A DNA stretch of 64,000 nucleotides from Maridesulfovibrio sp. (GCF_965230075.1 NZ_OZ245945.1:2959462-3023461), one strand, 5' to 3'; positions 2,924-25,105 are shown, counted from the first letter of the stretch. Numbers and translations: made by a program. Notes: a model not told the origin generated them from the sequence alone.

Positions 2924-4045
2924 ATGAGCTTCTATCCCATCTGCGCCGAATACAACGACGCCCCCCTTGCCGAGCAATTCGGCTCTGTAACTGAACACGA
3001 TGTCAGGCGCGCTCTTAACAAGACAACTTTAAGCCCCGAAGACTTTCTTGCCCTGTTAAGCCCCGCAGCAGTTCCCTTTATCGAGGAAATGGCCGCAAAA
3101 GCCAGCCAGCTGACTTTGCAGCACTTCGGCAGAACCATTCAGCTGTTCACCCCGCTGTACATGGCTAACTTCTGCACCAATAAGTGCGTATATTGCGGCT
3201 TCAACACCAAGAACAAAATCCCCCGTTCCCAGCTGGGACCGGAAGAACTGGAAAAAGAAGCCAAGGCCATTGCGGCCACCGGGCTGAAACACCTGCTCAT
3301 CCTCACCGGGGACGCCCGGGCCAAATCATCCCCGGAATACATAGAATCCGCCGTGCAAATCCTGCGTAAGCATTTTCCGTCCGTATCCATTGAGATCTAC
3401 GCCATGACAGAGGAAGAATACGCCCGTCAGGTGGAAGCAGGCGTGGACGGCATGACTATGTTTCAGGAAACCTACAACGAAGAGCTTTACCCGGAACTGC
3501 ATCCCGCAGGCCCCAAGCACGACTACCGCTTCCGCCTCGATGCCCCTGAACGAGCCTGCAAGGCCGGCATGCGCGTGGTCAACATCGGTGCCCTGCTCGG
3601 CCTTGATGAATGGCGTCACGATGCCCTGAAAACAGGCATCCACGCCGCCTACCTGCAGAACAAATATCCAGAAGTGGACATTGCCGTGTCACTGCCGCGC
3701 ATCCGCACCCATGTGGGCGATGCTTTCACTCCCAAATCTATCGTCAGCGACACCGCCCTTGTACAAAACATGCTGGCCCTACGCATTTTCCTGCCACGCT
3801 GCGGAATCACCATTTCCACCCGCGAGGCACCTGATTTCCGCGAGAATATCCTCCCGCTGGGCGTAACCCGCATGTCCGCAGGAGTATCCACCGAAGTAGG
3901 CGGACACACTTGTGACGAAGAGGAGAAAGTAGGCCAGTTCGACATCAGCGATGAGCGCAGCGTAGACGAAATGTGCGCAGTACTCCGCAAACATGGCTAC
4001 CAGCCCGTTTTCAAGGACTGGCATCCCTTGCAGGAAGCATCGTGA
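2924..4045 (+). CDS. thiH: 2-iminoacetate synthase ThiH (radical SAM)
   Basis: Radical-SAM CxxxCxxC motif CTNKCVYCGF, a ThiH-like length (373 aa), and a position between thiG and thiF. Confidence 0.9.
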   Translation: MSFYPICAEYNDAPLAEQFGSVTEHDVRRALNKTTLSPEDFLALLSPAAVPFIEEMAAKASQLTLQHFGRTIQLFTPLYMANFCTNKCVYCGFNTKNKIPRSQLGPEELEKEAKAIAATGLKHLLILTGDARAKSSPEYIESAVQILRKHFPSVSIEIYAMTEEEYARQVEAGVDGMTMFQETYNEELYPELHPAGPKHDYRFRLDAPERACKAGMRVVNIGALLGLDEWRHDALKTGIHAAYLQNKYPEVDIAVSLPRIRTHVGDAFTPKSIVSDTALVQNMLALRIFLPRCGITISTREAPDFRENILPLGVTRMSAGVSTEVGGHTCDEEEKVGQFDISDERSVDEMCAVLRKHGYQPVFKDWHPLQEAS

Positions 4046-9102: not shown

Positions 9103-9176
9103 CCTAATAAAATATTTTGGGATTCTTAAACCCTTTTTCAAAAGGGTTTAAGGCCCCCGGCAGGGCCGCCGGAGGC
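9103..9176 (-). repeat. REP-like double-hairpin intergenic element, copy A (inverted relative to copy C at 62398-62472)
   Basis: Its reverse complement reads GCCTCCGGCGGCCCTGCCGGGGGCCTTAAACCCTTTTGAAAAAGGGTTTAAGAATCCCAAAATATTTTATTAGG. This is nearly identical to 62398-62472. Confidence 0.6.
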
Positions 9177-9191
9177 CTATTGTGCTACTAA

Positions 9192-9926
9192 TTATCCAAA
9201 CATGCGTTTTGCAGGCTTGGCGAGATTAGCGAGAAACTCTTTGCGAGTTACGCCGTTGCCGACGCCGGAAGCGTCTGCGGTAACATACTCGTAATAGAGT
9301 TCAGGTTTATCCTGCACCAGATAGATGACATTAACTTCGTCAGCGTCAATAACTTCTGCATTAGGATAGTCTTTCTTGACCCGCTCAAGAGCTTTTTCAG
9401 CCAGAGCGACCATTTCTTCACGTTCACCGAAGTTCATGGTGCCGGTAGGACAGGTCTTGACACAAACAGGTACGAGTCCGGCCTGCTGGCGGTCAATACA
9501 CATATCGCACTTGGTCAGCATTCCGGTACCGGTATTACGGCGCGGAATGTTGTAGGGACACGCTTCGGTTATTTCCTGACACTCATCAGCAGCAAGACGC
9601 TTGGTCTGGTCGGTAAAGATAACCGCTCCGGTATCTTCATCCTTAATGACCGCACCAGTGACGTATGCATCGGCAATGTCCTTGCAGGGAGGCACATCGC
9701 AGTGGCGGCACTGGTCAGGGAAGAAGTACCACTCGACCTTACCGTTGATGCGATGCTCGCTGAAACGGACCAATTTGTAGTTAAAGGGGTTCAAGTCCGG
9801 CGGGTTCTGATGAGAACCGCGCTGCTTGGTTTCTACTGCGGGCAGATCGTGCCATTCCTTACAGGCAACCTGGCAACCGCGGCAAGCCGTACATCTGGAG
9901 GTATCTACAAAGAATGCTTTAGGCAT
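9192..9926 (-). CDS. fdhB: Formate dehydrogenase iron-sulfur (beta) subunit
   Basis: Multiple 4Fe-4S ferredoxin motifs (CTACRGCQVACKEWH, CRHCDVPPC, CDMCIDR, CVKTCPTG). It lies immediately downstream of fdhA. Confidence 0.85.
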   Translation of the reverse strand: MPKAFFVDTSRCTACRGCQVACKEWHDLPAVETKQRGSHQNPPDLNPFNYKLVRFSEHRINGKVEWYFFPDQCRHCDVPPCKDIADAYVTGAVIKDEDTGAVIFTDQTKRLAADECQEITEACPYNIPRRNTGTGMLTKCDMCIDRQQAGLVPVCVKTCPTGTMNFGEREEMVALAEKALERVKKDYPNAEVIDADEVNVIYLVQDKPELYYEYVTADASGVGNGVTRKEFLANLAKPAKRMFG

Positions 9927-9947: not shown

Positions 9948-12900
9948 TTACTCTTCAATCTCGGTGAGCTTTTTCGCTTTGCGAACGTTCACCAGACAGG
10001 CCTTGTACTCGGGAATGGTGGTGTTGGGGTCACCGACAGCCGGGGTGAGGCGGTTGGTGGCATCACCGCAACCTTTACTGGTCCAGCCGAAGCAGAAAGG
10101 CATACCGACTTCGTGGACGGTATCGCCCTTGATTTCAAACGGAGTCATACGCACAGTAACCATGGCGATGGCTTCAACCTTTCCGCGGATACTTTCAACG
10201 ATAACCGGATCGCCGTTTTCAATGCCCTTTTCCTTGGCTAGTTCAGGACTCATTTCCACGTAGAGCTGAGGTTCAGCTTCCAGTAATACCGGGGTGTTTC
10301 TAGTATCACCGCCACCGCACCAGTGCTCGGTCAGACTGTAAGTGGTGAGTACGATGGGGAAACGATCATCAGCAGGCTTAGCAAGCTTGTCCATGTCACT
10401 GAACACACGCTTGTAAACCGGGCTGCTGAGCTGACGAGAGAAAGGATGGCTCTTAATGGGAGTTTCCACCGGCTCGTAATGCTCGGGGAAAGGACCATCC
10501 TGACGACCGGGACCGTAAAGCTGCCCGTGACCTTCCTTACGCATGATGAAGGGATAGCGGCCCTTACCGGTCGCGTTCGGCGGCCATCCGCCATCAGGAA
10601 TATCGCCTTCCCACTTGGAACCGTTCCATTCGATAACAGCCTTTTCAGGAGCATAAGGCTTACCGTTAAGGTCTACGGATGCACGGTTGTAAAGGATACG
10701 GCGGTTAACCGGCCAGCACCATGCATAGTTGGGGTAGAGATTGATCTTGGCCTGCATGGGAGTCTGTTCCAGACTGCGGCGCTTGGCTTTGTTTCCGCCT
10801 TCCTCAGTGTAACTGCCTGCGTAGAGCCAGTTAAAGGAAGATGTGGAACCATCGTCTGCCAGAGCAACGAAGGAAGGTACCTGCTGGCCTTTTTTGTACT
10901 TCTTGCCCTTGAATTCCACATCCTTGGTGAAACGGCCGTTGATGCGCTGGGCCATATCTTCGGCATCGTAATAGGCAGGCCAGTCAAGGGAAAGCAAAGG
11001 TTCGGGGTAGGTTCCGTTCTCTTTATTATAGAGACGGCGTACGTGGTTGATGATATCCACATACATTTCACCCATGCTCTTGGATTCGCCCATGGGACGG
11101 CAGGCTTCATAGTGCCAGAGCAGCCAGCGGCCACTGTTGGAGATGGAGCCGGCTTTTTCCGCACGCTGGGCGGAAGGCAACAGGAAGACCTCAGTCTTGT
11201 TCTGGGTAGGATCAACGCCGGGGCGGTGCCAGTTCTCGGAAGTCTCGGTGTGGTGGATTTCACCCACAACCAGCCAATCGAGATTATCAAGAGCCTTACG
11301 GGTCTTGTTGGAGTTAGGCACACTCATGGCCGGGTTGGTTCCGAAAGCAAAACCACCCTTGATCTCACCTTTGTACATGCGGTCAAAGATGTAGATGTAG
11401 GAGTAATCTTCACCGTCGTCTGCCTTGGGCAGCATCTGGTAACCGAAGCCGTTATCTACGGAAGCATTATCACCGCGCCAGGCCTTGAGCAGGGATGCCA
11501 TGTACTTGGGCTTATGCTGCCACCAGTTGGCACTTTGAGGATCGTGGGAAATCGGGGTGGTTTTCTCCACGTATTCTTCATAAGAACCCATACTGGCTTT
11601 TGGCATAGGCAGGTATCCGGGCAGAATATGCCAAAGGATACAATGGTCAGTGGACCCCTGTACGTTAGGCTCACCGCGCAGGGCGTTGATACCGCCACCT
11701 GCTACACCGATGTTACCAAGCAGGAGCTGCAGGATGGCACTGGAACGGATGTTCTGTACACCAACTGTATGCTGGGTCCAGCCCAGTGCGTACATGATGG
11801 TACCGGACTTATCTTTCTTACCTGTGGAAGCGAATTCCTTGTAGACTTTGATCAGGTTATCCTTGGAAACACCTGTGGTCTTGGATACGTTGGACAGGGA
11901 GTAACGTGAGTAGTGCTTCTTAAGCAGCTGGAATACACAGCGGGAATCCTTCAAGGATTCATCGCGCTTGGGTACACCGTCTTTATCCAGCTCAAAAGCC
12001 CATTTGGATTTGTCATATTTACGCGACTTCTTGTCGTAACCGGAGAAAAGTCCTTTAGTGAACTTGAAATCCTTACCGACGATGAAGGCTGCGTTGGTAT
12101 AATTGGCAACGTATTCCTTGAAGAACAGATTGTTATTCAGGACATAGTTGATCATACCGCCCATGAAGGCAATATCGGTTCCCGATCTCAAGGGGACGTG
12201 GAAATCACACCTTGCGGAAGTTCGGGAGAATTTGGGGTCAACATGCATAACCGAGGCACCTTTGTCCTTGGCCCGCAATACCCATTTGAAGGAGATAGGA
12301 TGGTGCTCTGCGGCGTTACTACCGATAATCAGGATAGAGTCCGCATTTTCAATATCGCACCAGTGGTTGGTCATCGCACCGCGCCCGAACGACTCTGCCA
12401 GAGCCGCAACTGTTGCGCTGTGTCAGATACGTGCCTGGTGATCAAAATGCACCAGGCCGAGGCCGCGTACACCCTGATGGACGACTGCACACTCCTCGTT
12501 ATCCATCTGTGATGTACCAAGATGGAAAATTGATTCTACACGGTTGACTTCCTGGCCCTTGGCGTTGAACCGTTTGAAGTCCGCATCACGTGTTTCCTTT
12601 ACGCGCCGGGCAATGCGGTCAAGCACGAAATCCCAGCTCTTTTCTTCCCATTTAGTGCTGTAAGGAGCACGGTACAGGGGTTTCTCAATGCGGTGGTGAC
12701 TGTTATGCATGGCGAGCATAGCCGCACCCTTAGCACAGAGAGCACCTTCACTGACCGGATAATCCGGGTCACCTTCAGTGCTGACAATCTTTCCGTCCTT
12801 GACATGGGCGATAAAGTGACAGCTGACCGAACAGAACGGACAGATGGAGATCACTTCCTTCGCACCCTTGATCTTCAACCCGGCAGCATAAGCCTGCGTC

Positions 12901-12989
12901 GGGGAGAGATCGAGTCCCAGCTGGCTCATACCGATACTTGCGACACCAACGCCCGCAAGTTTCATGAACCCTCGCCGTGAAATGTTCAT
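9948..12989 (-). CDS. fdhA: Periplasmic formate dehydrogenase catalytic (alpha) subunit, selenocysteine-containing (two track ORFs joined through the in-frame UGA at 12423-12425)
   Basis: Twin-arginine signal MNISRRGFMKLAGVG. ORFs 12423..12989 and 9948..12374 share one frame. Read-through gives HQARI-U-HSATVAALAESFGRGAMTNHW, the conserved FDH Sec active-site context. An AGGAGG RBS precedes the ATG at 12989. Confidence 0.9.
12370..12425 (-). promoter_or_regulatory. UGA selenocysteine codon (12423-12425) plus the downstream region where a SECIS hairpin is expected
   Basis: The TGA is flanked by conserved FDH residues. A short imperfect hairpin, AGCGCA-ACAGU-UGCG(G)CU, begins a few nt after the UGA. 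The SECIS fold was not verified. Confidence 0.65.
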
Positions 12990-13177
12990 GGGATCCTCCT
13001 CAGTTTACATCAGGCTTACAAAACCGACCCGAAGAGCCGCCTAGACCTGACAATTACTTTGATGATCCCATAGAATCTCAACTAAAAAATAAAGTCAATA
13101 AATCGAATATGTTAGAAAAAACACATATGAACACTATTTGTTATCCCAAAGTTCCTGATTCAATTATATTCTTAGCT

Positions 13178-14002
13178 TTAACTACCTGTAGATACTGCTT
13201 GACACCTAGGTGACTTCTTGAAATCCAATTTAAGATTTTTATGCCAAAATGACGGGTGCTTCTTAGCTATACAAACAGGCCCTTCATAAAAACTGTCCAA
13301 TTTATCAGACACATAACCTCTAAGACTGAATGTACACGCATTAACTATTGCGATAGCTTTATATTCTTTAATTAGCGCACAAAATTCATCTTCCACCTCA
13401 GGCCATAAAATTTTCCATATCTTGTCCCGCATTGTTCTAACACCCGGAACATTTAACTCCTTTTTATGAAGAGAATATAATGATGTTTGGTATGGTACAG
13501 GATTGGAAAGAATGACTTGAAATTCTTTGAATCTACGATCCATCTTTTTAATTAAATTTGATTTGTTAAGCAGATCTTCAAGCAGCGATTCAATTTTATC
13601 TCCAGTTTCTTTTTGCGCAGGAGCCTTTGGCCACACTTCATCATTTTCACTCATCCCATACTCATACTTGTGAGGCGACTCAAGGATGATTACAAGTGAT
13701 GGTTTTTCAAATATAGGAGCAATATCATTGAAAGAACTTTTGTTGAAGATATCATCCTTTGTTTCATTTTTATGCAAAACAAATTTATTTGCACAAACTT
13801 TAACTGTATATCTACAAACATCGTCAACTTTCATGCTTACATCAAACAAAAAATCTAAATCAACAACACCATTTTCTGCATATCCTTTAAGTAATTCAAT
13901 TTGACGATGAGCATGCTTCTCAACTCCATACTTATGTTCACGAATTTTGATATACTGCACAGTTTTACTCATAAGCCTATCCGCCTCTAACAGCATGCCC
14001 AA
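13178..14002 (-). CDS. Hypothetical protein, AT-rich orphan (possible uracil-DNA-glycosylase-superfamily fold)
   Basis: A long ORF in a visibly AT-rich segment. The motif order VIILESPH ... ETGDKIESLL ... VILSNPVPYQTS ... AIVNAC ... KKHPSFW resembles UDG-superfamily motifs A and B. The start may instead be M11 at 13972. Confidence 0.5.
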   Translation of the reverse strand: MGMLLEADRLMSKTVQYIKIREHKYGVEKHAHRQIELLKGYAENGVVDLDFLFDVSMKVDDVCRYTVKVCANKFVLHKNETKDDIFNKSSFNDIAPIFEKPSLVIILESPHKYEYGMSENDEVWPKAPAQKETGDKIESLLEDLLNKSNLIKKMDRRFKEFQVILSNPVPYQTSLYSLHKKELNVPGVRTMRDKIWKILWPEVEDEFCALIKEYKAIAIVNACTFSLRGYVSDKLDSFYEGPVCIAKKHPSFWHKNLKLDFKKSPRCQAVSTGS

Positions 14003-14011
14003 TGCCGTTTT

Positions 14012-14680
14012 TTATTTATTCTCATGCAACTCCATCAGCCGATCAACCTCATCAATGGAAATAATTTCTATTTCCTTGTTCGGAGCCAGAATATTCTTAT
14101 CCTGCAACCCCTTAAAGATACGGTTGATACTGCGCAGGCTGGTGCCCAGATAATTAGCGATTTCCTCTTTTGATATCTGCAAAACCCGCGAGCCGTGCTC
14201 CTCAAACTGCATCTTGATCATCTTCAGTACTGAGTATTCAAGGGGGTAACTCAGGTTCACTGCCGCCCTTCTGGTGAATGACTGCAAACGAAATGAAAGA
14301 ATGCGGTTGACCAGCAAGGCGAAGCGATGATCTTCCGCCAGCCATGTTTCATAATCAGCAGGCAGCACCGTAGCCACCCTACACTCTTCCAAAGCAGTAA
14401 CCGAACAGGCCGCCAGACTTCCGGTCAAAGCCTCAACCTCGCCAAGCAGCTTGCCCGGACCTTCCAAGGCCACAAGGTACTCACTGCCCTTGGCCATATT
14501 CAGATGCACCTTCATGCTTCCACTGAGGATAATGAAAACCGCATCCGGCACCTGCCCTTCCACTATAATTGATTCACCGGGACGAACTTCCATTTCACGT
14601 TGTTTTTCCGGACTGCTGCTTTTCCTTTCCCCGTAAATTTCAAGAAGCTCTTGGGCCAATCCGTTCTCAATTTCCTTCAT
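14012..14680 (-). CDS. Crp/Fnr-family transcriptional regulator
   Basis: An N-terminal cNMP-binding-like beta-barrel (GESIIVEGQVPDAVFIILSGSMKV ... LLGEVEAL) and a C-terminal HTH (SKEEIANYLGTSLRSINRIFKGL). Confidence 0.85.
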   Translation of the reverse strand: MKEIENGLAQELLEIYGERKSSSPEKQREMEVRPGESIIVEGQVPDAVFIILSGSMKVHLNMAKGSEYLVALEGPGKLLGEVEALTGSLAACSVTALEECRVATVLPADYETWLAEDHRFALLVNRILSFRLQSFTRRAAVNLSYPLEYSVLKMIKMQFEEHGSRVLQISKEEIANYLGTSLRSINRIFKGLQDKNILAPNKEIEIISIDEVDRLMELHENK

Positions 14681-14761
14681 AATTATCCGCTGAGGACAAA
14701 TGTCCTTTTTAATTTTTTCGCCTTACCGTATCCCCATGCAGAACCAAACAGGAGAATACCA

Positions 14762-15463
14762 ATGTTCAAGAATAATATAAATGTAGTGGCCTTTGACGCT
14801 GACGACACCCTCTGGATCAACGAACCCATATTTCAGGAAGTCACAGCCGAATTCTGCAATATGTTTCTCACATACAATGAGCCGGGAGCAATCGGCAAGA
14901 TGCTGGAGGAAACCCAGTCACGCATTATCCCGGTCATGGGCTACGGCTCAAAACCTTTTACAATCGCCATGATCGAAACCGCTGTGCAAATCACCGGAGG
15001 CAAGAACTGCGCCAAGGAGATCAACAGAATTATCGAGCTGGGCAAGAAAATGCAAAGCCATCCTGTGGAACTGCTGGACGGTGTCGAAGACGTGCTGGAT
15101 AAGCTCGCCGCAGATTTCAAGCTAATGCTCATCACCAAGGGCGACCTCATGGAGCAGGAACGGAAAATCCAACGTTCCGGTCTGGCCGACTATTTTTCCT
15201 GCATCGAGATAGTAAGTGAAAAAGACGAGCGGACCTACAAGAAATGCCTAGACTTCCACGACATCTGCAAAGATGAATTCTTGATGGTCGGAAATTCCGT
15301 AAAATCCGACATTCTCCCGGTAGTAAATATCGGTTCCAATGCAGTGCATATCCCCTTCCACACCACATGGTGCCACGAATGCGTGGATGAGGCTGCACTT
15401 GAGGGCAAAGAGTTTGTAACCGTGGAGCACTTCGGGGAGCTGCTGCCCATTTTGAGCGCCTAG
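14762..15463 (+). CDS. HAD-superfamily hydrolase
   Basis: HAD motif I (VAFDADDTLW) and later motifs (ITKGD; MVGNSVKSDI). The ATG at 14762 follows AGGAG. The track ORF start at 14600 would overlap the crp-like gene. Confidence 0.8.
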   Translation: MFKNNINVVAFDADDTLWINEPIFQEVTAEFCNMFLTYNEPGAIGKMLEETQSRIIPVMGYGSKPFTIAMIETAVQITGGKNCAKEINRIIELGKKMQSHPVELLDGVEDVLDKLAADFKLMLITKGDLMEQERKIQRSGLADYFSCIEIVSEKDERTYKKCLDFHDICKDEFLMVGNSVKSDILPVVNIGSNAVHIPFHTTWCHECVDEAALEGKEFVTVEHFGELLPILSA

Positions 15464-15475
15464 CAAGGAGCAAAG

Positions 15476-16072
15476 ATGTTTAGAACTGACGACAATTCCA
15501 TATACAACCTGCTGGATTTCCTGCGCCGTGCAGAGGGCTTAAAGTCCACCCTGCGTACTACTTGGACCCGCAACGGCAGGCAGGAAAGCACAGCCGAACA
15601 CAGCTGGAGGCTCTGCCTGCTCGCCATGCTGGTCAGCCACAACTACCCGGAACTTGATGCCCTGAAAATCCTGCAACTGTGCATCATCCATGACTTGGGC
15701 GAAACCATAAACGGTGACATTCCCGCGCCGGAACAGGTCGGGGCAAGTAAGGAAAAAGAAGAGCAGGAACGAACAGACATGCTAGACCTGCTCCGTCCCC
15801 TGCCTGCTGAGCTACAGCAGGAGTTAATGGGACTATGGGAAGAGTACGAGTACGCCAAAACACCGGAAGCACGGATAGTGAAGGCACTTGATAAGCTGGA
15901 GACCTTATTACAGCAGACCCAAGGTTTGAATCCCCCTGATTTCGATTACAAATTCAATCTTGGGTATGGGGTGAAGTATACTAGAGTTGATGAGTTTATA
16001 TCTGGTTTGCGGGATATTATTGATGAGGAGACTGAGGGATGTGTTTTGGCGCGGGGAGATGATTTGGGTTGA
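15476..16072 (+). CDS. HD-domain phosphohydrolase (YfbR-like 5'-nucleotidase type)
   Basis: H...HD...D signature (STAEHSWRL ... IIHDLGETINGDIP ... KALDKLE). Confidence 0.8.
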   Translation: MFRTDDNSIYNLLDFLRRAEGLKSTLRTTWTRNGRQESTAEHSWRLCLLAMLVSHNYPELDALKILQLCIIHDLGETINGDIPAPEQVGASKEKEEQERTDMLDLLRPLPAELQQELMGLWEEYEYAKTPEARIVKALDKLETLLQQTQGLNPPDFDYKFNLGYGVKYTRVDEFISGLRDIIDEETEGCVLARGDDLG

Positions 16073-16105
16073 TGGGATCGTATTTTTTCGCGATATTTTT
16101 TTAAG

Positions 16106-16139
16106 GCGGACCTGAGTGGGTAACTCAGGTTCGCTTTTG
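16106..16139 (+). terminator. Rho-independent terminator after the HD gene; left edge of the AT-rich island
   Basis: 11-bp stem GCGGACCTGAG / CTCAGGTTCGC, followed by TTTTGT. Confidence 0.55.
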
Positions 16140-16196
16140 TTGGCTCTTAATTTAATAACGTACGCAATAAATAGATTCATAATTAACAAAACAACG

Positions 16197-17792
16197 CTAA
16201 GAGTACATTTTTTTCAAGGACTTATACACATTATCTTTATACGAACTTCTCTGTTGATGTGAGCTAAAATTCGAATCTACAATATGCATCATTAAGTCAA
16301 CCTGAATTTTGATCATGCTTTCCTTGTTGTGTTTAGAATATTCATCCTTATACAAAAGGCACACAACACATATTTTATGGAAAAGTATTTCTATAAGATG
16401 ATCATTCTTAACACTATTCACAAAATCACTTAGCTGACTTATATACCGAGAGTTATTAGGAGACATACCATGTAAAATAAACAGAAATGCAAAGATTTCG
16501 TAATCGTCTTTAAGATCTGATACATCTATTTTATCAAAAACCTTCTCTAATTTCTTTGAGTTGATAATTTGAAAAAAGACATCCGTCCTTATAACGGGCA
16601 TTAAGACTAAGGAAAAATATTCAAGATCGCTCGATATTTTATCCCAAAACTCATCGGAATTAGCCAACTCTCTCATTTGCTCATCATCAGACTCATTTTT
16701 TATTTTTTCAATAATCTCCGGCAATCTCGGCAATAATTCCCCAAACTGAATCGACATAACTTCTATCATTGCCATATTGTACGAAAGAATTTTTCTAAAA
16801 GCATCAATCTTAAAATTTACTTTTGGTAAAAGGTCTGTATTTTTGAGGACAATTGCAGCTGTATCCAAAACAATTTGAAAGTGTATCCCTGCATCTTCTT
16901 CATTAAAACCTTCGGAACTTTGCTCCAATGCATAATTAGAATTATCTTCACTGAGCAAGTTATCAATCATCAAGTCATCTATTTCACTTGTATCATCTCT
17001 TTCATCTCTAGAAACTACTTCTGTATCTATAACATCGCCCCCCTCTTCTTCTACTGAGTTAAAATCAATTCTACGGCATCTAGACTTAGCTTTAGTGAAC
17101 ACCATTTTTTTGCCATTACGTAAAATTGGATCAATTTGCTCATCATATTCGTTAGCCAATTGCGCGAGAAGACTATTCAGCAAAGCTTCTGCTCCACACT
17201 CTCTATCAAAACCTGCAACTAACTTTATGGCTTTAGGTGAAATATCTACCTCAGGAATAGTCTGAATTCTTTGTAACAACTTAGGATCACTAATCGCTTT
17301 TTTAGCTAAAAAATAATCATAGAAACACTTTAAAAACAAATAGACTTCATTATCTTTTTCATCAATCAACTTAGAATTTATGAGATAATTATAGAAGCTG
17401 GGCCCACTCACAGATTGACTTCTTTCTCCAAAATATTCTTCGATCTGCTTCATAAAATCACTCACCTTCAGAGACATTCTCCCTTGCGCATACATCTCTC
17501 CTGCAAAATCAGAAAGAAACCCCTCTCTCAAGCGATAATCAGCTAATCCACCTGAAGACAAATCATCTTGATCCTTTTTCAATAATGTCTCGACAAACTT
17601 TTCTAACAAAGAAGCTTCGTTTGCCGGTATATAGTCAGGTTGACTCTCAAAAACATATAAACACAAAGAAAGAACATAAGGCGTCATATGCAAATCAAGA
17701 TTAGCTGAGAATTCAGCTATCTTCTTCACGATTGAATCTGTATCTCCCTCTTTGTTCACAAACCATTTTTCTACTAAGCTTCGTACATGCAC
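16197..17792 (-). CDS. C-terminal continuation of the STAND/NACHT-like module: post-ATPase helical/winged-helix segment, acidic linker and unassigned helical tail
   Basis: Opens with VRSLVEKWF ... TPYVLSLCLYVF ... IPANEASLLEKFVETLL, the kind of segment that follows a NACHT ATPase core. It has a GTG start and overlaps the upstream ORF by 19 nt in another frame. The sequence is AT-rich. Confidence 0.6.
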   Translation of the reverse strand: MHVRSLVEKWFVNKEGDTDSIVKKIAEFSANLDLHMTPYVLSLCLYVFESQPDYIPANEASLLEKFVETLLKKDQDDLSSGGLADYRLREGFLSDFAGEMYAQGRMSLKVSDFMKQIEEYFGERSQSVSGPSFYNYLINSKLIDEKDNEVYLFLKCFYDYFLAKKAISDPKLLQRIQTIPEVDISPKAIKLVAGFDRECGAEALLNSLLAQLANEYDEQIDPILRNGKKMVFTKAKSRCRRIDFNSVEEEGGDVIDTEVVSRDERDDTSEIDDLMIDNLLSEDNSNYALEQSSEGFNEEDAGIHFQIVLDTAAIVLKNTDLLPKVNFKIDAFRKILSYNMAMIEVMSIQFGELLPRLPEIIEKIKNESDDEQMRELANSDEFWDKISSDLEYFSLVLMPVIRTDVFFQIINSKKLEKVFDKIDVSDLKDDYEIFAFLFILHGMSPNNSRYISQLSDFVNSVKNDHLIEILFHKICVVCLLYKDEYSKHNKESMIKIQVDLMMHIVDSNFSSHQQRSSYKDNVYKSLKKMYS

Positions 17793-19402
17793 GCTTTGAA
17801 TGGGTGTATATAGAGTTTCACAAAATTAAATGAGCTGATTCTCTTCGCTAACTCATCCAGCGCCTTCTCGTAATCTTCTTGGAGTGAAACGATGACACGC
17901 ACTCCAAATTCTTTTTTTATTTTTGCTAATTCCTCAATCAATCGTTTGGAAAAGATAAAATTATCCAACAACAAAACTACATTGGCCGACTTCAGCAACT
18001 TCTTAGTTTCAATTTTATTCTTACCAACTAAATATGAAAGTGATTTAATTATTTTCTCCTTGTCTTTAGGCAAGGAATTGACATCAACATAAAACGCCAT
18101 TTTTCTCGAAATATTAAATCGGTACTGCAAATATGATAAAAATGACGTCTTCCCTGAATTTTGTTTACCAACAACGATATAGTTATCGTCTGAATTCAAA
18201 ATGCCATCTTCAGTATAGATTTTGTCTCCCGAACCAGACTTAGCCAAAGAATCTGCACGCATTAAACTCGGTGACACGGATCTAATTTCAGGAAAAACGT
18301 ATATCTCTTCAACTCTCTGTGGTGCAAAATCACTTATCTCTGAAACTAAGGCTGGATAATTTAACTCAAGTTGTTCGAAAACCTTCAAATCGACAGGGCA
18401 GCTATTCGCTGTCAACTCAGTCTCGACAGTCCAGATACCACCCTTACCCATATCATTGTTTGAATCAAAAGACTTCCGTAATTCAAAATATTTTCTATGA
18501 ATACAATTTAAATCATTATTGTGGAGAGCCAAAGCGGTATAACCATGATACGCATTCGCATAATCGTCATTGCAAAGGGCACCAGCTTGCAAATTCACAC
18601 ATGCCCCTTGGGGTTTAGATAATTTTGATGAATCATGCTCATGCATATGCCCACACAGGAACATCGCTTTGTCCCACAATAACTGGTTTTGAATATATTG
18701 CTTATCGAAATCAGATAACCACTCCAAAGGATGGTGTGCTAAAACAATTTTCACATCTGCTTCACACGATTTTACGTAATCATTATACTGTTTTTTACCA
18801 ATCAACATTTTACCTTCATCTTCATCGCCACCATAAGCAATCCATGAAGAACATAGCGAACTAACACTAATAGTATTGTTCTTAATCATATATTCTTTAC
18901 AAAAGGATATTTGACCTTTGAATTCTTGAAGGCTCGTATTTGAATAAAAATCATCTCGTGCTTCCACAAAATTTTTCAAGGTAGAGTATATGACATCATT
19001 ACTGAAACCGACCTTAGTTTGATATGATTCAAGTTTTTCTACATCATTATTTAAAAAACTAATCCCTGCTACTTTTTCAGCATCAAAACAACTACGGTCG
19101 ACCTCATGATTTCCAGGGCAAATAATAAATTTATCTCTTTCAAGCCCAACTGTTTGCAAAATATCTACAGCAATATCGTCAAAGAAATTAATAATAGAAA
19201 CAGGATCTCCGCCGTCAAAAACAGCATCACCAGTAAAAAATATTAAATCAGGGCTCCAGTTAAGTTCCTCTCTCAACTCGACTAAATCTTTTTTAAGTGC
19301 CTTAAGATTATCTTCAATCTTACCCAAATTTCTATCGGCCAAATGCAAATCAGAAAGATGCAACATATTCAGTGAGTTAGTAAAATCAAAATCGCCCATC
19401 AA
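17774..19402 (-). CDS. Calcineurin-like metallophosphoesterase fused to a P-loop NTPase (STAND/NACHT-like)
   Basis: All five metallophosphoesterase motifs occur in order (LHLSDLHL, FTGDAVFDG, CPGNHE, LAHHP, CGHMHE). Walker A VVGKQNSGKTS and Walker B-like VVLLLDNF follow. Confidence 0.75.
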   Translation of the reverse strand: MMGDFDFTNSLNMLHLSDLHLADRNLGKIEDNLKALKKDLVELREELNWSPDLIFFTGDAVFDGGDPVSIINFFDDIAVDILQTVGLERDKFIICPGNHEVDRSCFDAEKVAGISFLNNDVEKLESYQTKVGFSNDVIYSTLKNFVEARDDFYSNTSLQEFKGQISFCKEYMIKNNTISVSSLCSSWIAYGGDEDEGKMLIGKKQYNDYVKSCEADVKIVLAHHPLEWLSDFDKQYIQNQLLWDKAMFLCGHMHEHDSSKLSKPQGACVNLQAGALCNDDYANAYHGYTALALHNNDLNCIHRKYFELRKSFDSNNDMGKGGIWTVETELTANSCPVDLKVFEQLELNYPALVSEISDFAPQRVEEIYVFPEIRSVSPSLMRADSLAKSGSGDKIYTEDGILNSDDNYIVVGKQNSGKTSFLSYLQYRFNISRKMAFYVDVNSLPKDKEKIIKSLSYLVGKNKIETKKLLKSANVVLLLDNFIFSKRLIEELAKIKKEFGVRVIVSLQEDYEKALDELAKRISSFNFVKLYIHPFKACMYEA

Positions 19403-19615
19403 TAAATCTCCAAACTCTTACAGATTTTTTATAATAATGTAACTGCACGAAATTTACACAACATTATTTATTTAGACCAGCGTTTTATAGATAAAATGAT
19501 AAATATCAATACTACCCACCCACTTCCAATCCCCCATAGACACAAATCCCCCACAATGGCAGAATGGCAACTAAAACCATACTACCTGCCACCTTAACCA
19601 ATAGGGGGGATACCC

Positions 19616-23465: not shown

Positions 23466-23971
23466 GTTCTCTCCATATTCTTAAAACTTTAATTATGCCG
23501 TATGAGGCACAATTAAGAAAAGCGTGACCGAACTTCAAAAGACACGGGATTGTGTACGGTTTGGAACAAAATAATTTTAGGCATTAAAATTGAACACTTA
23601 AAGCACAAACATCTCACACTGCGGAGGTATGGATTCAGAACAATCCATAAACCAAACCAATAAACAATCAAAGCACACATAGAACTAACACATTAATCAC
23701 AAAGGATTTTCCGGTGCAAAAGGCTGGAACAACCATATATGTTAAAATAAACAACTAACTATTTTCGTAAAAAACCTGCACCGAACATAACCTTCTCCCA
23801 TCTTCAAATGTAGTCACAGCTAATCATAATCACAAAAGCTGATCCCAACCAACTCAAATCATTCTAAGAACCAATTGGACGCAACAATGGTTCTGTGCTC
23901 ATTTACTATCGAAATTTTTGATACAGATATATCGACAACGATCCATCTATAAATACAATAAGGACAAAGCC

Positions 23972-25105
23972 GTGAACTTGAAGCCGTTCATTTCGTTTTC
24001 CGAATACAGTCTGGCGGACCTTGAGGAATGGAAAGACAAGGGGAACAAGGTCGCCGGGGTTTACTGTATATACGCCCCCAATGAACTTATCCGCGCCGCC
24101 GGGATTGCCCCGGTAAGCCTTTGCGGGAAAAAACAGGCTCCCATCAAGGAGGCCGAACGGGAACTCCCGGCCAGCCTCTGCCCGCTGATCAAATCCAGCT
24201 ACGGCTACGCTATTACAGACACCTGTCCCTTTTTCAGCTTCTCGGACATCATCATTGCCGAAACCACCTGTGACGGTAAAAAGAAAATGTATGAGCTGAT
24301 GGAAACCATCAAGCCGCTTCATCTCATGCAGCTGCCCCATACCCAGAAAGGTGATGCTCCCTTCCACTACTGGCTTGCAGGCTTGCATGAGCTCGAAAAA
24401 TTTCTCATTCAGCACTCAGGCGTAGAAGTAACTGAAGAAGCCCTGCACGCTGAAATCATCCTGCAAAATAACATCCGCAAGGAACTCTACGAATTGATGG
24501 TTCTTTGCGCGGATAAGCGTTCCCCCCTAACCGCCCGCGACATGCTCGCAGTGCAGGAAAGCAAAAGCTTCTCAGTTAACCCGGAAAACTACCTGCAGAA
24601 ACTACAGACCCTGCGAACTGAAATTGATGAATATCTGAGCCGCCCGGACCTTGAGGAAAAGAAAGGTGTCCGCATAATGCTGACCGGATGTCCGGTAGGC
24701 AAAGGATCGGAAAAAGCAATCACCATCACTGAAGATTTGGGCGCCCATGTCGTATGTATGGAAAACTGTTCCGGACTCAAAGGGCTGACCCTCCCGGTGG
24801 ATGAGACAGGCGATCCATACGAAGCTATTGCCCGCCGCTACCTGCAGGTGTCCTGCTCCTGCATGAGCCCCAATCCCGGCAGGCTTGATTCCATCCGTGA
24901 AATGATCACGACCTTTCAAGTAGACGCAATTATCGATCTCACATGGCTGGGCTGCCATACCTACAATGCAGAATCCACCATTCTGCGTAATTTTGTGGAG
25001 GACGAAATAGGCCTGCCCTTCCTGCACATTGAGACCGACTATTCCGAATCAGACATTGAGCAACTACGGACCCGCATTGAGGCGTTTGTAGAGCTTGCTG
25101 AATAA
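23972..25105 (+). CDS. 2-hydroxyacyl-CoA dehydratase D-component / BcrC-BadD / double-cubane-cluster family protein (solitary)
   Basis: HGD-D-like pattern (NKVAGVYCIYAPNELIRAAGIAPV ... LCPLIKSSYG ... AETTCDGKKKMYELM ... TGCPVG). The proposed GTG start at 23972 follows AAGGA. The track ORF starts at 23918. Confidence 0.75.
   Translation: MNLKPFISFSEYSLADLEEWKDKGNKVAGVYCIYAPNELIRAAGIAPVSLCGKKQAPIKEAERELPASLCPLIKSSYGYAITDTCPFFSFSDIIIAETTCDGKKKMYELMETIKPLHLMQLPHTQKGDAPFHYWLAGLHELEKFLIQHSGVEVTEEALHAEIILQNNIRKELYELMVLCADKRSPLTARDMLAVQESKSFSVNPENYLQKLQTLRTEIDEYLSRPDLEEKKGVRIMLTGCPVGKGSEKAITITEDLGAHVVCMENCSGLKGLTLPVDETGDPYEAIARRYLQVSCSCMSPNPGRLDSIREMITTFQVDAIIDLTWLGCHTYNAESTILRNFVEDEIGLPFLHIETDYSESDIEQLRTRIEAFVELAE

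What the first reader, a model, noticed from the sequence alone, without database searches (positions are those of the whole stretch)
16197..19402. Low-GC island encoding a metallophosphoesterase-STAND/NACHT-like NTPase with a long unassigned helical tail: candidate undescribed conflict/defence module
Two overlapping minus-strand ORFs fill a conspicuously AT-rich insert. Spot counts of single 60-nt lines give 18/60 G+C at 16201-16260 and 30/60 at 15481-15540. The insert lies between the HD-gene terminator (16106-16139) and the decarboxylase gene.

The 542-aa product has all five calcineurin-like phosphoesterase motifs in order (LHLSDLHL, FTGDAVFDG, CPGNHE, LAHHP, CGHMHE). A P-loop NTPase follows (Walker A GKQNSGKT, Walker B-like VVLLLDNF).

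The next ORF opens with the segment that normally follows a NACHT core (VRSLVEKWF, TPYVLSLCLYVF, IPANEASLLEKFVETLL). It continues with an acidic linker and ~300 aa of helical sequence carrying no motif I recognise.

Effector head, STAND ATPase, then helical sensor is the layout of Avs/bNACHT-type antiphage proteins. I do not recognise a named system with this head and tail. No integrase, tRNA or flanking direct repeats were seen.
Basis: partly seen in the sequence, partly recalled or inferred. Interest (0 to 1): 0.8.

Follow-up and report, generated by a model that had tools for sequence, protein, structure and literature searches.

The report
Frameshifted DS-8-like anti-phage gene
The two overlapping ORFs are one ~1,067-codon gene of the already described DS-8 / PDC-S60 family of single-protein, NLR-like anti-phage enzymes, split here by a one-base deletion and sitting in a variable cargo hotspot of a Maridesulfovibrio genome, so it is a divergent and probably inactivated member of a known kind, not a new system.

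Summary
The sequence observation is accurate: ORFs, GC drop, spot counts, all motifs and the terminator check out. The "undescribed module" reading does not hold. Both ORFs match one PADLOC profile end to end (PDC-S60: ORF1 on positions 2-524, ORF2 on 528-1012). The repaired protein matches NCBIfam DS8_antiphage over its full length (1e-45, but 156 bits against an equivalog cut-off of 790). DS-8 is an E. coli metallophosphatase-NACHT protein shown in 2025/26 to block phage; its D52, N84 and K375 are required and align with window D59, N98 and K418. An intact 1067-aa homologue (77% identity, no gaps) shows the split is a 1-nt deletion at 17790|17789, with no homopolymer or slippery site. dN/dS is 0.04-0.09 in both halves, so the break is very recent or a sequencing error. 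AlphaFold and Foldseek confirm an NLRC4/NOD2-like NACHT core. The "tail" is NACHT helical subdomains, an acidic disordered linker and a 234-aa helical bundle. That bundle is shared family-wide (HHalign 95%) but has no structural neighbour. Relatives show the variable segment is really 13130-19500, a hotspot between fdhA and the decarboxylase gene with different cargo in each genome. Verdict: a new, divergent, disrupted member of a known kind.

The parts
16197..19402 (-). One DS-8 / PDC-S60-like gene (about 1067 codons when repaired), split into two ORFs. The likely true start is ATG at 19399.
   Evidence: PADLOC PDC-S60 6.7e-81, residues 12-1049 on model 2-1011/1027. NCBIfam DS8_antiphage 1e-45, residues 15-1030 on model 1-988/994. 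77% identity with no gaps to intact P0001.
18503..19366 (-). Calcineurin-like metallophosphoesterase (effector) domain, ORF1 residues about 13-300, with all metal-binding motifs intact.
   Evidence: Pfam PF00149 1.2e-11. Metal-binding residues are nearly invariant in the family alignment. D59 and N98 align with DS-8 D52 and N84. PDB profile hits to Lmo2642, Mre11/SbcD and Rv0805.
18146..18169 (-). Walker A / P-loop GKQNSGKT (K418) of the NACHT-type NTPase. Walker B LLLDN follows at ORF1 residues 477-481.
   Evidence: G411, G416, K417 and D479 (P0001 numbering) are nearly invariant. K418 aligns with DS-8 K375. NLRC4 NACHT hit at 8.7e-11.
17789..17790 (-). Site of the 1-nt deletion (GCGTG|CATGTA here, GCGTGTCATGTT in the intact homologue). 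It breaks the gene inside the NACHT module, after the strand that follows Walker B.
   Evidence: DNA alignment with L001. Frame analysis. No slippery heptamer and no homopolymer run of 5 or more in the overlap.
17774..19402 (-). ORF1: metallophosphoesterase, linker, and the P-loop core of the NTPase. It ends at a premature stop created by the frameshift.
   Evidence: (PDC-S60 positions 2-524).
16197..17792 (-). ORF2: the remainder of the NACHT module (helical and winged-helix subdomains), an acidic linker and the C-terminal bundle. Its GTG start has no Shine-Dalgarno sequence.
   Evidence: PDC-S60 positions 528-1012, 7.8e-16. Upstream sequence CCCATTCAAAGC|GTG.
17307..17471 (-). Match to Pfam nSTAND_NTPase4 (PF24406), ORF2 residues 108-162.
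   Evidence: 8.3e-06, 26.2 bits against a gathering score of 27. The same Pfam family is precomputed on many family members and on DS-8-clade fragments.
16899..17099 (-). Acidic, predicted-disordered linker (ORF2 residues about 232-298).
   Evidence: pLDDT below 50 for P0001 residues 768-834. This is the segment with the lowest identity to P0001 (65%).
16200..16901 (-). C-terminal 234-aa all-helical bundle, the presumed sensor or regulatory domain.
   Evidence: AlphaFold2 pLDDT 91.3, pTM 0.86. Homologous to the tails of 20 other family members (HHalign 95.3%, E 2.2e-8, 167 columns). No structural neighbour: PDB best E 0.052 and BFVD best E 0.1, TM at most 0.33.
19403..19514 (-). 5' untranslated / promoter region that travels with the gene, including the GGAG ribosome-binding site.
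   Evidence: DNA homology with the unrelated contig L001 runs from 19514 to exactly the stop codon at 16197.
13131..19493 (.). Variable cargo hotspot between fdhA and the TPP-dependent decarboxylase gene. It holds a 274-aa orphan ORF, a Crp-like regulator, a HAD hydrolase, an HD_3 hydrolase and the DS-8-like gene.
   Evidence: Synteny with five Maridesulfovibrio/Desulfovibrio genomes stops at about 13130 and resumes at 19494-19535. The relatives hold 0.9-2.9 kb of different low-GC cargo there.

Best explanation
The locus is a single horizontally acquired gene of the DS-8 / PDC-S60 family, carried in a variable hotspot of a Maridesulfovibrio chromosome. When intact, the encoded protein of about 1067 aa is a bacterial NLR-like (STAND) immune protein. 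It has an N-terminal metallophosphoesterase effector, a central NACHT-type ATPase switch, a disordered acidic linker and a C-terminal helical bundle.

Proposed mechanism, by analogy with DS-8 and other STAND defence proteins: the C-terminal region detects an infection cue, most likely a phage protein. NTP-dependent oligomerisation of the NACHT module then activates the phosphoesterase heads. These hydrolyse a phosphodiester substrate (a nucleotide messenger or nucleic acid; not yet known even for DS-8), which stops phage propagation.

In this window the gene carries a 1-nt deletion at 17790|17789. It separates the P-loop core from the rest of the NACHT module and the sensor. The downstream ORF has no ribosome-binding site, so this copy is most likely a very recently inactivated allele.

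Shown here: homology, architecture, conserved catalytic residues, the frameshift, purifying selection and the hotspot. Shown in the literature for E. coli DS-8: phage protection that needs the phosphatase residues and the Walker A lysine. Inferred: the sensor role of the tail, oligomerisation, the substrate, and loss of function of this allele.
For: One profile covers both ORFs colinearly (PDC-S60). The repaired protein matches DS8_antiphage over the full length. ORF1 against DS-8 residues 1-399 gives BLASTP E 6e-17, with D52/N84/K375 aligned to D59/N98/K418. DS-8 is a validated single-protein metallophosphatase + NACHT system in which those three mutants lose defence (PMC13092281). The intact 1067-aa homologue P0001 is 77% identical with no gaps. 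The 1-nt deletion is seen directly at the DNA level. dN/dS is 0.092 upstream and 0.038 downstream of the break, with no further indel or stop. The NACHT fold is supported by NLRC4 at 8.7e-11 by profile and by Foldseek hits to NLRC4, NOD2, NLRP3, NAIP5, Avs4 and EfAvs5. Catalytic and P-loop residues are nearly invariant in 25 family members. The tail is conserved family-wide. The family is large and uniform in length (top 150 representatives 840-1120 aa, nearly all matching end to end; 7526 representatives at E<=1e-30). Members occur as stand-alone genes on chromosomes and plasmids. Low GC of 0.34, against 0.52 in the flanks, and different cargo at this site in each relative indicate horizontal acquisition.
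Against: The score against the NCBIfam DS-8 equivalog model is far below its cut-off (156 against 790 bits), and identity to DS-8 is only about 21%. Function is therefore extrapolated across a large distance. ORF2 alone gave no NCBIfam hit. Full-length DS-8 was not available, so the tail could not be compared with DS-8's own tail directly. PDC-S60 itself is only a 'candidate' in PADLOC. Whether the deletion is real cannot be decided without reads. No phage data exist for this clade or this host.
Confidence: 0.82

Rival explanations
1. The same gene family, but the frameshift is a sequencing or assembly error. The organism would then carry an intact, functional 1067-aa DS-8-like protein.
For: The frameshift is the only lesion in 3.2 kb. 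Both halves show strong purifying selection (dN/dS 0.04-0.09) and align without gaps to the intact homologue. Neither ORF product is on record elsewhere, so there is no independent confirmation of the broken allele.
Against: The missing base is not in a homopolymer (GCGTG|CATG; no run of 5 or more in the overlap), which is where indel errors concentrate. A very recent real mutation would leave exactly the same signature.
Confidence: 0.28
2. The split is functional. Either it is a two-polypeptide version (phosphoesterase plus P-loop core, and helical/winged-helix subdomains plus sensor, reassembling), or expression of the full-length protein is regulated by a -1 ribosomal frameshift in the 19-nt overlap.
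For: The ORFs overlap, which could allow translational coupling, and ORF2 is in the -1 frame. Both halves are otherwise pristine.
Against: There is no X XXY YYZ heptamer or slippage-prone run in the permitted zone 17828-17774. There is no Shine-Dalgarno sequence before the ORF2 GTG. The closest homologue and all top 150 family representatives are single ORFs. The break cuts inside the NACHT module rather than between domains.
Confidence: 0.04
3. An undescribed defence system, with a head and tail combination not found in any named family.
For: The window/P0001 clade is at most 27% identical to everything else found. Its C-terminal bundle has no structural neighbour in PDB or BFVD. It falls below the DS-8 equivalog cut-off.
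Against: There are end-to-end colinear matches to PDC-S60 and DS8_antiphage. The tail is homologous to the tails of other family members. The same Pfam pair PF00149 + PF24406 appears across the family and in DS-8-clade fragments.
Confidence: 0.04
4. A housekeeping repair or metabolic phosphoesterase-ATPase (SbcCD/Mre11-Rad50-like, or a nucleotide phosphodiesterase) rather than an immune protein.
For: The N-terminal approximately 90 residues match Mre11/SbcD and Rv0805/Icc in PDB profile searches. There is a weak NCBIfam sbcD hit (0.044).
Against: The ATPase is NACHT/STAND, not SMC/Rad50. There is no SbcC-like partner gene. The gene is absent from this site in five related genomes. It has foreign GC. 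It sits in a cargo hotspot and elsewhere on plasmids.
Confidence: 0.02

Closest known systems
DS-8 (E. coli WP_032203427.1, 1014 aa; DefensePredictor, bioRxiv 2025 / Science 2026, PMC13092281)
   Same: A single protein with an N-terminal metallophosphatase, a NACHT NTPase and a C-terminal region of similar length. The repaired protein aligns over NF053861 positions 1-988/994. The validated residues D52, N84 and K375 are conserved as D59, N98 and K418. It is a stand-alone gene.
   Different: Identity is only about 21% in the N-terminal 400 aa. It scores 156 bits against an equivalog cut-off of 790. The host phylum is different (Desulfobacterota rather than Enterobacterales). This copy is frameshifted. 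The tail could not be compared directly because only 399 aa of DS-8 were retrievable.
PADLOC PDC-S60 (phage defence candidate, PADLOC-DB 2.0.0)
   Same: This is the best profile match: 270.8 bits, E 6.7e-81, covering residues 12-1049 on model positions 2-1011/1027. Family members such as P0003 score 1e-121.
   Different: PDC-S60 is a computational candidate without its own published validation (no paper mentions it; the PDC definition is). The window clade is a divergent branch of it.
Bacterial NLR-like proteins: bNACHT (Kibby et al. 2023, from my own knowledge) and Avs/AVAST
   Same: The logic is the same: effector, STAND NTPase, then C-terminal sensor. Foldseek matches Avs4 (8dgf, 1.5e-5), EfAvs5 (9jap, 1.1e-5) and eukaryotic NLRs. 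The DS-8 authors' HHblits links DS-8 to NLR_like_bNACHT01 at 99.8%.
   Different: No PADLOC Avs or bNACHT model was matched at E<=1. Pfam NACHT PF05729 was not matched; nSTAND_NTPase4 was matched instead. There is no TPR, LRR or WD40 sensor, and the tail is a compact 234-aa helical bundle.
DS-9A (metallophosphatase of the two-gene DS-9 system, which pairs it with a HAD phosphatase)
   Same: The metallophosphatase domain is homologous (NF053862, 9.3e-10). A HAD hydrolase gene happens to lie 1.3 kb away in the same hotspot.
   Different: DS-9A has no NACHT domain. Here the HAD gene is on the opposite strand, has host-like GC (0.49) and forms its own operon with an HD_3 hydrolase, so the proximity is probably coincidental.
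B. subtilis YydB (PDB 9a6c_B, integrative YydD-YydB model) and SMPDL3A/3B, Lmo2642, Rv0805, Mre11/SbcD
   Same: These are the closest structural or sequence relatives of the phosphoesterase head: YydB by Foldseek at 1.8e-14, and Lmo2642 at 1.7e-10, Mre11 at 2.3e-8 and Rv0805 at 1.6e-6. The DS-8 authors report similarity to SMPDL3A/3B.
   Different: None of these is fused to a NACHT NTPase. They span both nuclease and cyclic-nucleotide or lipid phosphodiesterase activities, so they do not fix the substrate.

Membership tests
DS-8 / PDC-S60 (metallophosphoesterase-NACHT single-protein anti-phage family) | N-terminal calcineurin-like metallophosphoesterase with a complete metal-binding motif set, including the residues shown to be essential in DS-8 (D52, N84) | tested here: met
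   PF00149 1.2e-11. The DxH, GD, GNH, HH and GHxH motifs are present and nearly invariant in the family. D59 and N98 align with DS-8 D52 and N84.
DS-8 / PDC-S60 (metallophosphoesterase-NACHT single-protein anti-phage family) | Central NACHT/STAND P-loop NTPase with a Walker A lysine (DS-8 K375) and a Walker B aspartate | tested here: met
   K418 aligns with K375. NLRC4 NACHT at 8.7e-11. Foldseek NLR hits. nSTAND_NTPase4 at 8.3e-6, just under the gathering score.
DS-8 / PDC-S60 (metallophosphoesterase-NACHT single-protein anti-phage family) | Colinear full-length match to the family profiles, including the C-terminal domain | tested here: met
   PDC-S60 residues 12-1049 on model 2-1011/1027, 6.7e-81. 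DS8_antiphage residues 15-1030 on model 1-988/994, 1e-45. The tail against other members' tails gives HHalign 95.3%.
DS-8 / PDC-S60 (metallophosphoesterase-NACHT single-protein anti-phage family) | Score above NCBIfam's equivalog cut-off for DS8_antiphage (790 bits), i.e. the same protein in the narrow sense | tested here: not met
   155.9 bits for the repaired protein and 165.9 for intact P0001. It is a distant homologue, not a DS-8 equivalog.
DS-8 / PDC-S60 (metallophosphoesterase-NACHT single-protein anti-phage family) | One uninterrupted ORF of about 1000-1100 aa | tested here: not met
   The window copy is split by a 1-nt deletion at 17790|17789. The closest homologue and the top 150 representatives are single ORFs.
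DS-8 / PDC-S60 (metallophosphoesterase-NACHT single-protein anti-phage family) | Protection against phage that depends on phosphatase and ATPase residues | not testable with these tools
   Demonstrated only for E. coli DS-8 (PMC13092281).
Avs / AVAST | Match to Avs family profiles, with a large TPR-like C-terminal sensor that recognises terminase or portal | tested here: not met
   No Avs model at E<=1 in PADLOC. The tail is a 234-aa bundle with no TPR/Avs structural match. The only similarity is at NTPase level to Avs4 and Avs5.
bNACHT (bacterial NACHT, NLR-related) | Canonical NACHT module (Pfam PF05729 or bNACHT profiles) | tested here: inconclusive
   PF05729 was not hit for the window protein, though related metallophosphoesterase fusions carry it. 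The structure and profile are NACHT-like. The DS-8 authors report a bNACHT01 HHblits probability of 99.8% for DS-8.
SbcCD / Mre11-Rad50 repair nuclease | An SbcD-type nuclease above the family cut-off, with an SMC-like SbcC/Rad50 ATPase partner and conserved genomic presence | tested here: not met
   sbcD 13.6 bits against a cut-off of 77.65. The ATPase is STAND, not SMC. The gene is absent at this site in relatives.

The most novel reading that the evidence does not exclude
The window/P0001 pair may represent a deep, very rare branch of the family. Only two sequences were found among 5.8 billion clusters, and none in the JGI metagenome scan. Its structurally orphan C-terminal bundle may recognise a new class of trigger in phages of sulfate reducers. 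Alternatively, the split may be a working two-polypeptide NLR (effector plus P-loop core, and helical subdomains plus sensor) rather than a pseudogene.
Probability: 0.06. Interest if true: 0.5.

Novelty: new member of a known kind. Interest (0 to 1): 0.22.

Why it matters
The value is mainly curatorial. The two "hypothetical" ORFs should be annotated as one disrupted DS-8/PDC-S60-like anti-phage gene, not chased as a new system.

There are modest positive points. The result extends a recently validated E. coli defence protein to a very distant branch (about 21% identity) in marine sulfate-reducing bacteria. It shows that the catalytic residues and the C-terminal helical bundle are conserved family-wide. 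It shows the family is large (thousands of clusters at 50% identity). It also identifies the fdhA-decarboxylase interval as a cargo hotspot in Maridesulfovibrio that could be mined for other systems.

The substrate of the phosphoesterase head and the trigger sensed by the tail remain open for the whole family. An intact relative such as P0001 could serve as a second, divergent test case.

Tried and rejected
- **Exact-sequence look-ups:** neither ORF1 nor the decarboxylase is on record, so the broken allele has no independent confirmation.
- **Metagenome scan with the window+P0001 alignment:** it returned only distant relatives, 23-29% identical in the phosphoesterase domain.
- **Viral-contig scan with the family alignment:** it failed because no conserved stretch was long enough.
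- **tblastn against phage records:** no match.
- **Literature on "PDC-S60" and on "metallophosphoesterase + NACHT + anti-phage":** no papers found.
- **Full-length DS-8:** only the first 399 aa were held in the supplement. A database search with that fragment returned only partial proteins, 226-688 aa. The tail comparison with DS-8 itself therefore rests on the NCBIfam model alone.
- **A two-sequence HMM of the tail:** it found only marginal, though positionally consistent, hits (E 0.03-0.09). The profile-profile comparison was needed to show homology.
- **Foldseek of the tail alone against PDB and BFVD:** nothing significant.
- **Mobility signatures:** I found no flanking repeats, tRNA or integrase.
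- **Programmed frameshift:** rejected for lack of a slippery site or homopolymer run, and because the closest homologue is unshifted.
- **Functional link to the neighbouring HAD/HD/Crp genes (by analogy with DS-9):** rejected as unsupported, given the opposite strand, host-like GC and absence of defence-profile hits beyond generic cNMP-domain similarity.
- **YydB/YydD literature:** nothing useful.


Full report
**1. Observation.** The two minus-strand ORFs exist exactly as described: 17774..19402 (542 aa) and 16197..17792 (531 aa), overlapping by 19 nt. GC falls to 0.32-0.39 across 16000-19500 and is 0.51-0.53 in the conserved flanks. All five phosphoesterase motifs, the Walker A and B motifs and the three ORF2 motifs are present. 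The HD-gene terminator is a 15-bp hairpin (dG -24.4) at about 16104-16138. There is no tRNA in the window, no convincing flanking repeat and no integrase among the ORFs of the segment.

**2. One gene, not two.** ORF2 lies in the -1 frame relative to ORF1, and the frame switch must fall between 17828 and 17774. A single PADLOC profile, PDC-S60 (1027 positions), covers ORF1 on positions 2-524 and ORF2 on 528-1012. A database search with the repaired protein found P0001, an uninterrupted 1067-aa protein from a 3.7-kb Logan contig. It is 77% identical over 1066 residues with no gaps. The DNA alignment shows the lesion directly: the window reads GCGTG-CATGTA where L001 reads GCGTGTCATGTT. One base of a Cys codon is missing between 17790 and 17789.

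The context is not a homopolymer, and the overlap contains no X XXY YYZ heptamer. ORF2's GTG has no Shine-Dalgarno sequence. ORF1's real start is probably ATG 19399, 8 nt after GGAG and aligned with Met1 of P0001. dN/dS between the window and L001 is 0.092 upstream and 0.038 downstream of the break, and there is no other indel or stop. The disruption is therefore very recent, or a sequencing error. The data here cannot separate these. I favour a real mutation, roughly 2:1, because the context is not error-prone.

**3. What the gene is.**
- **Pfam:** Metallophos on ORF1 residues 13-255 (1.2e-11) and nSTAND_NTPase4 on ORF2 residues 108-162 (8.3e-6, just below the gathering score).
- **PADLOC:** the repaired protein scores 6.7e-81 against PDC-S60 over residues 12-1049.
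- **NCBIfam:** it scores 1e-45 (155.9 bits) against NF053861 "DS8_antiphage" over residues 15-1030, matching model positions 1-988/994. This is far below the equivalog cut-off of 790 bits.

DS-8 is one of the systems validated in the DefensePredictor study (bioRxiv January 2025; Science 2026; PMC13092281). It is a single E. coli protein (WP_032203427.1, 1014 aa) with a metallophosphatase domain resembling SMPDL3A/3B and a NACHT domain. It protects against phage, and D52A, N84A or K375A abolish protection.

The first 399 residues of DS-8 were recovered from the supplement. BLASTP against ORF1 gives 21% identity and E 6e-17. D52, N84 and K375 align with window D59 (TGD), N98 (GNH) and K418 (GKT). 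In an alignment of 25 family members, the metal-binding residues, the Walker A glycines and lysine, and the Walker B aspartate are nearly invariant.

**4. Structure.** AlphaFold2 on intact P0001 with the family alignment gave pLDDT 77 and pTM 0.60. The model resolves into:
- a phosphoesterase sandwich, up to about residue 326;
- a flexible linker;
- a P-loop alpha/beta core, about 400-531;
- helical and winged-helix subdomains, up to about 765;
- a disordered acidic linker, 768-834;
- a confident helical bundle, 835-1067.

Foldseek against PDB gives B. subtilis YydB (1.8e-14) for the head. For the NTPase it gives NLRC4, NOD2, NLRP3, NAIP5, ORC/Cdc6, Avs4 and EfAvs5. A profile search of PDB sequences gives NLRC4 NACHT at 8.7e-11, and Lmo2642, Mre11/SbcD and Rv0805 for the head. 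The frameshift falls right after the strand that follows Walker B, so it is inside the NACHT module and not at a domain boundary.

**5. The "unassigned tail".** About 230 residues of ORF2 belong to the NACHT module, so the true tail is the 234-aa bundle encoded at 16200-16901. Modelled alone from the window sequence, it is very confident (pLDDT 91.3, pTM 0.86). It has no significant neighbour in PDB (best E 0.052; designed helical repeats and 14-3-3; TM at most 0.33) or in BFVD (best E 0.1). It is not clade-specific, however. A profile of the window and P0001 tails aligns with an independently built profile of 20 other members' tails at HHalign probability 95.3%, E 2.2e-8, over 167 columns. 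A simple HMM search had been only marginal. The tail is therefore a fast-evolving, family-wide domain. This is the pattern expected of a sensor or regulatory module, but that role is an inference.

**6. Family size and context.** An exhaustive HMMER search found 41,330 representatives (clusters at 50% identity) at E<=1e-3 and 7,526 at E<=1e-30. The top 150 are 840-1120 aa and nearly all match end to end. The counts at weaker thresholds will include other metallophosphoesterase-STAND architectures (LRR, TPR and FGE-sulfatase fusions seen).

Homologues occur on 21 plasmid records (Bacillus, Sphingomonas and others) and in no phage record. Two sampled neighbourhoods show a stand-alone gene without a conserved partner. 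One lies among metabolic genes in Paenibacillus. The other sits next to a recombinase and a restriction-modification cluster on a Sphingomonas plasmid. The window/P0001 clade itself is rare: the next-best hit is 27% identical, and a metagenome scan found no closer relative.

**7. Genomic setting.** The decarboxylase next door is 81-93% identical to those of Maridesulfovibrio genomes. Nucleotide synteny with five relatives ends at about 13130, just upstream of the formate dehydrogenase alpha gene, and resumes at 19494-19535. None of the six window ORFs in between occurs in the loci fetched from the relatives (±10 kb around the decarboxylase gene).

| Relative | Cargo at this site |
|---|---|
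| L002 | a 542-aa protein with no family match |
| L003 | a zeta-toxin-like P-loop protein |
| L004 | a radical-SAM/SPASM protein with weak pVip-model similarity, plus a 195-aa secreted protein |
| L005 | the 195-aa protein alone |

Homology between the window and the unrelated contig L001 starts 112 nt upstream of the start codon and ends exactly at the stop codon. The transferable unit is therefore the gene with its own promoter region. This is a recombination hotspot without recognisable mobility genes, and the finding's coordinates cover only the right-hand cargo block.

**8. Mechanism (committed).** For the intact protein, I propose that the C-terminal bundle, possibly together with the winged-helix region, senses a phage-derived cue. 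NTP-dependent oligomerisation of the NACHT module then activates the N-terminal phosphoesterase. Hydrolysis of a phosphodiester substrate halts infection.

The substrate is open. The DS-8 authors favour a cyclic nucleotide, by analogy with SMPDL3A. The head also resembles Mre11/SbcD nucleases, and ORF1 alone also matched a PADLOC effector model annotated "Endonuclease" (PDLC00736, 1.2e-17). I regard a nucleotide and a nucleic-acid substrate as about equally likely.

For this window's allele, the P-loop core is cut off from the rest of the switch and from the sensor, and ORF2 lacks a ribosome-binding site. The copy is most likely non-functional if the deletion is real.

**9. Comparison and novelty.** It works like, and is homologous over its full length to, DS-8/PDC-S60. 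It is not a DS-8 equivalog by NCBI's cut-off, and it is not an Avs or a profile-defined bNACHT member. The finding is therefore a new, divergent and disrupted member of a known kind.

Noticed in passing
window 9948-12989 (-), in-frame TGA at 12423-12425: The formate dehydrogenase alpha subunit appears as two ORFs (188 aa with a TAT signal, plus 808 aa). They are one 1013-codon gene with a single in-frame TGA in the context ...HQARI*HSATV.... That fits a selenocysteine codon rather than a frameshift. No SECIS element was sought.
   Followed up: partly
window 13178-14002 (-): A 274-aa ORF sits in a separate low-GC block (0.34) at the left edge of the same hotspot. It has no Pfam, PADLOC or NCBIfam match. 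It is orphan cargo of unknown function.
   Followed up: partly
window 14012-16072: A Crp/Fnr-like cNMP-binding regulator (-), a HAD hydrolase (YjjG-like pyrimidine nucleotidase similarity) and an HD_3/YfbR-like 5'-deoxynucleotidase (+) have host-like GC (0.49). They are nevertheless absent from this site in relatives L002-L005. The nucleotide-phosphatase pair next to a defence gene recalls DS-9's metallophosphatase + HAD pairing, but nothing here links them.
   Followed up: partly
L002:8197-9825, L003:2645-3202, L004:7099-8592 and 9208-9795, L005:9211-9798: The fdhA-decarboxylase interval carries different low-GC cargo in each Maridesulfovibrio/Desulfovibrio relative: a 542-aa protein with no family match, a zeta-toxin-like P-loop protein, a radical-SAM/SPASM protein with weak similarity to prokaryotic viperin models (1.3e-16), and a 195-aa secreted protein. 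The site looks like a hotspot worth mining.
   Followed up: partly
window 23500-24000: A third GC dip (0.36-0.40) occurs here. Synteny with L004 and L005 ends at about 23757-23759, while L002 continues to 26000. This may be another variable boundary.
   Followed up: no
window 9105-9181: A 77-nt stretch matches L002 at 91% on the opposite strand at 16648-16724 and, partly (56 nt, 87.5%), at 3882-3934, away from the syntenic position. It may be a small dispersed repeat. ARAGORN found no tRNA here.
   Followed up: no
window 14241-14261 and 16115-16135: A 21-nt direct repeat (90% identical) links the inside of the Crp-like gene with the stem of the HD-gene terminator hairpin. It is possibly a chance match.
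   Followed up: no
plasmid hits H2 (Bacillus cereus NZ_CP072770.1) and H3 (Klebsiella grimontii CP079755.1): The two records give identical tblastn statistics for the family member (27.5% identity, 3e-51, same query range). This suggests near-identical DNA in a Bacillus plasmid and a 'Klebsiella' plasmid, either by recent transfer or through a mis-assigned or contaminated record.
   Followed up: no
PDB 9a6c_B (B. subtilis YydB): The best structural match of the full-length model is YydB, from an integrative YydD-YydB model (E 1.8e-14, TM 0.52 on the target). This suggests that the yydB phosphoesterase and its partner may be a related conflict module. The literature search gave nothing useful.
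   Followed up: partly
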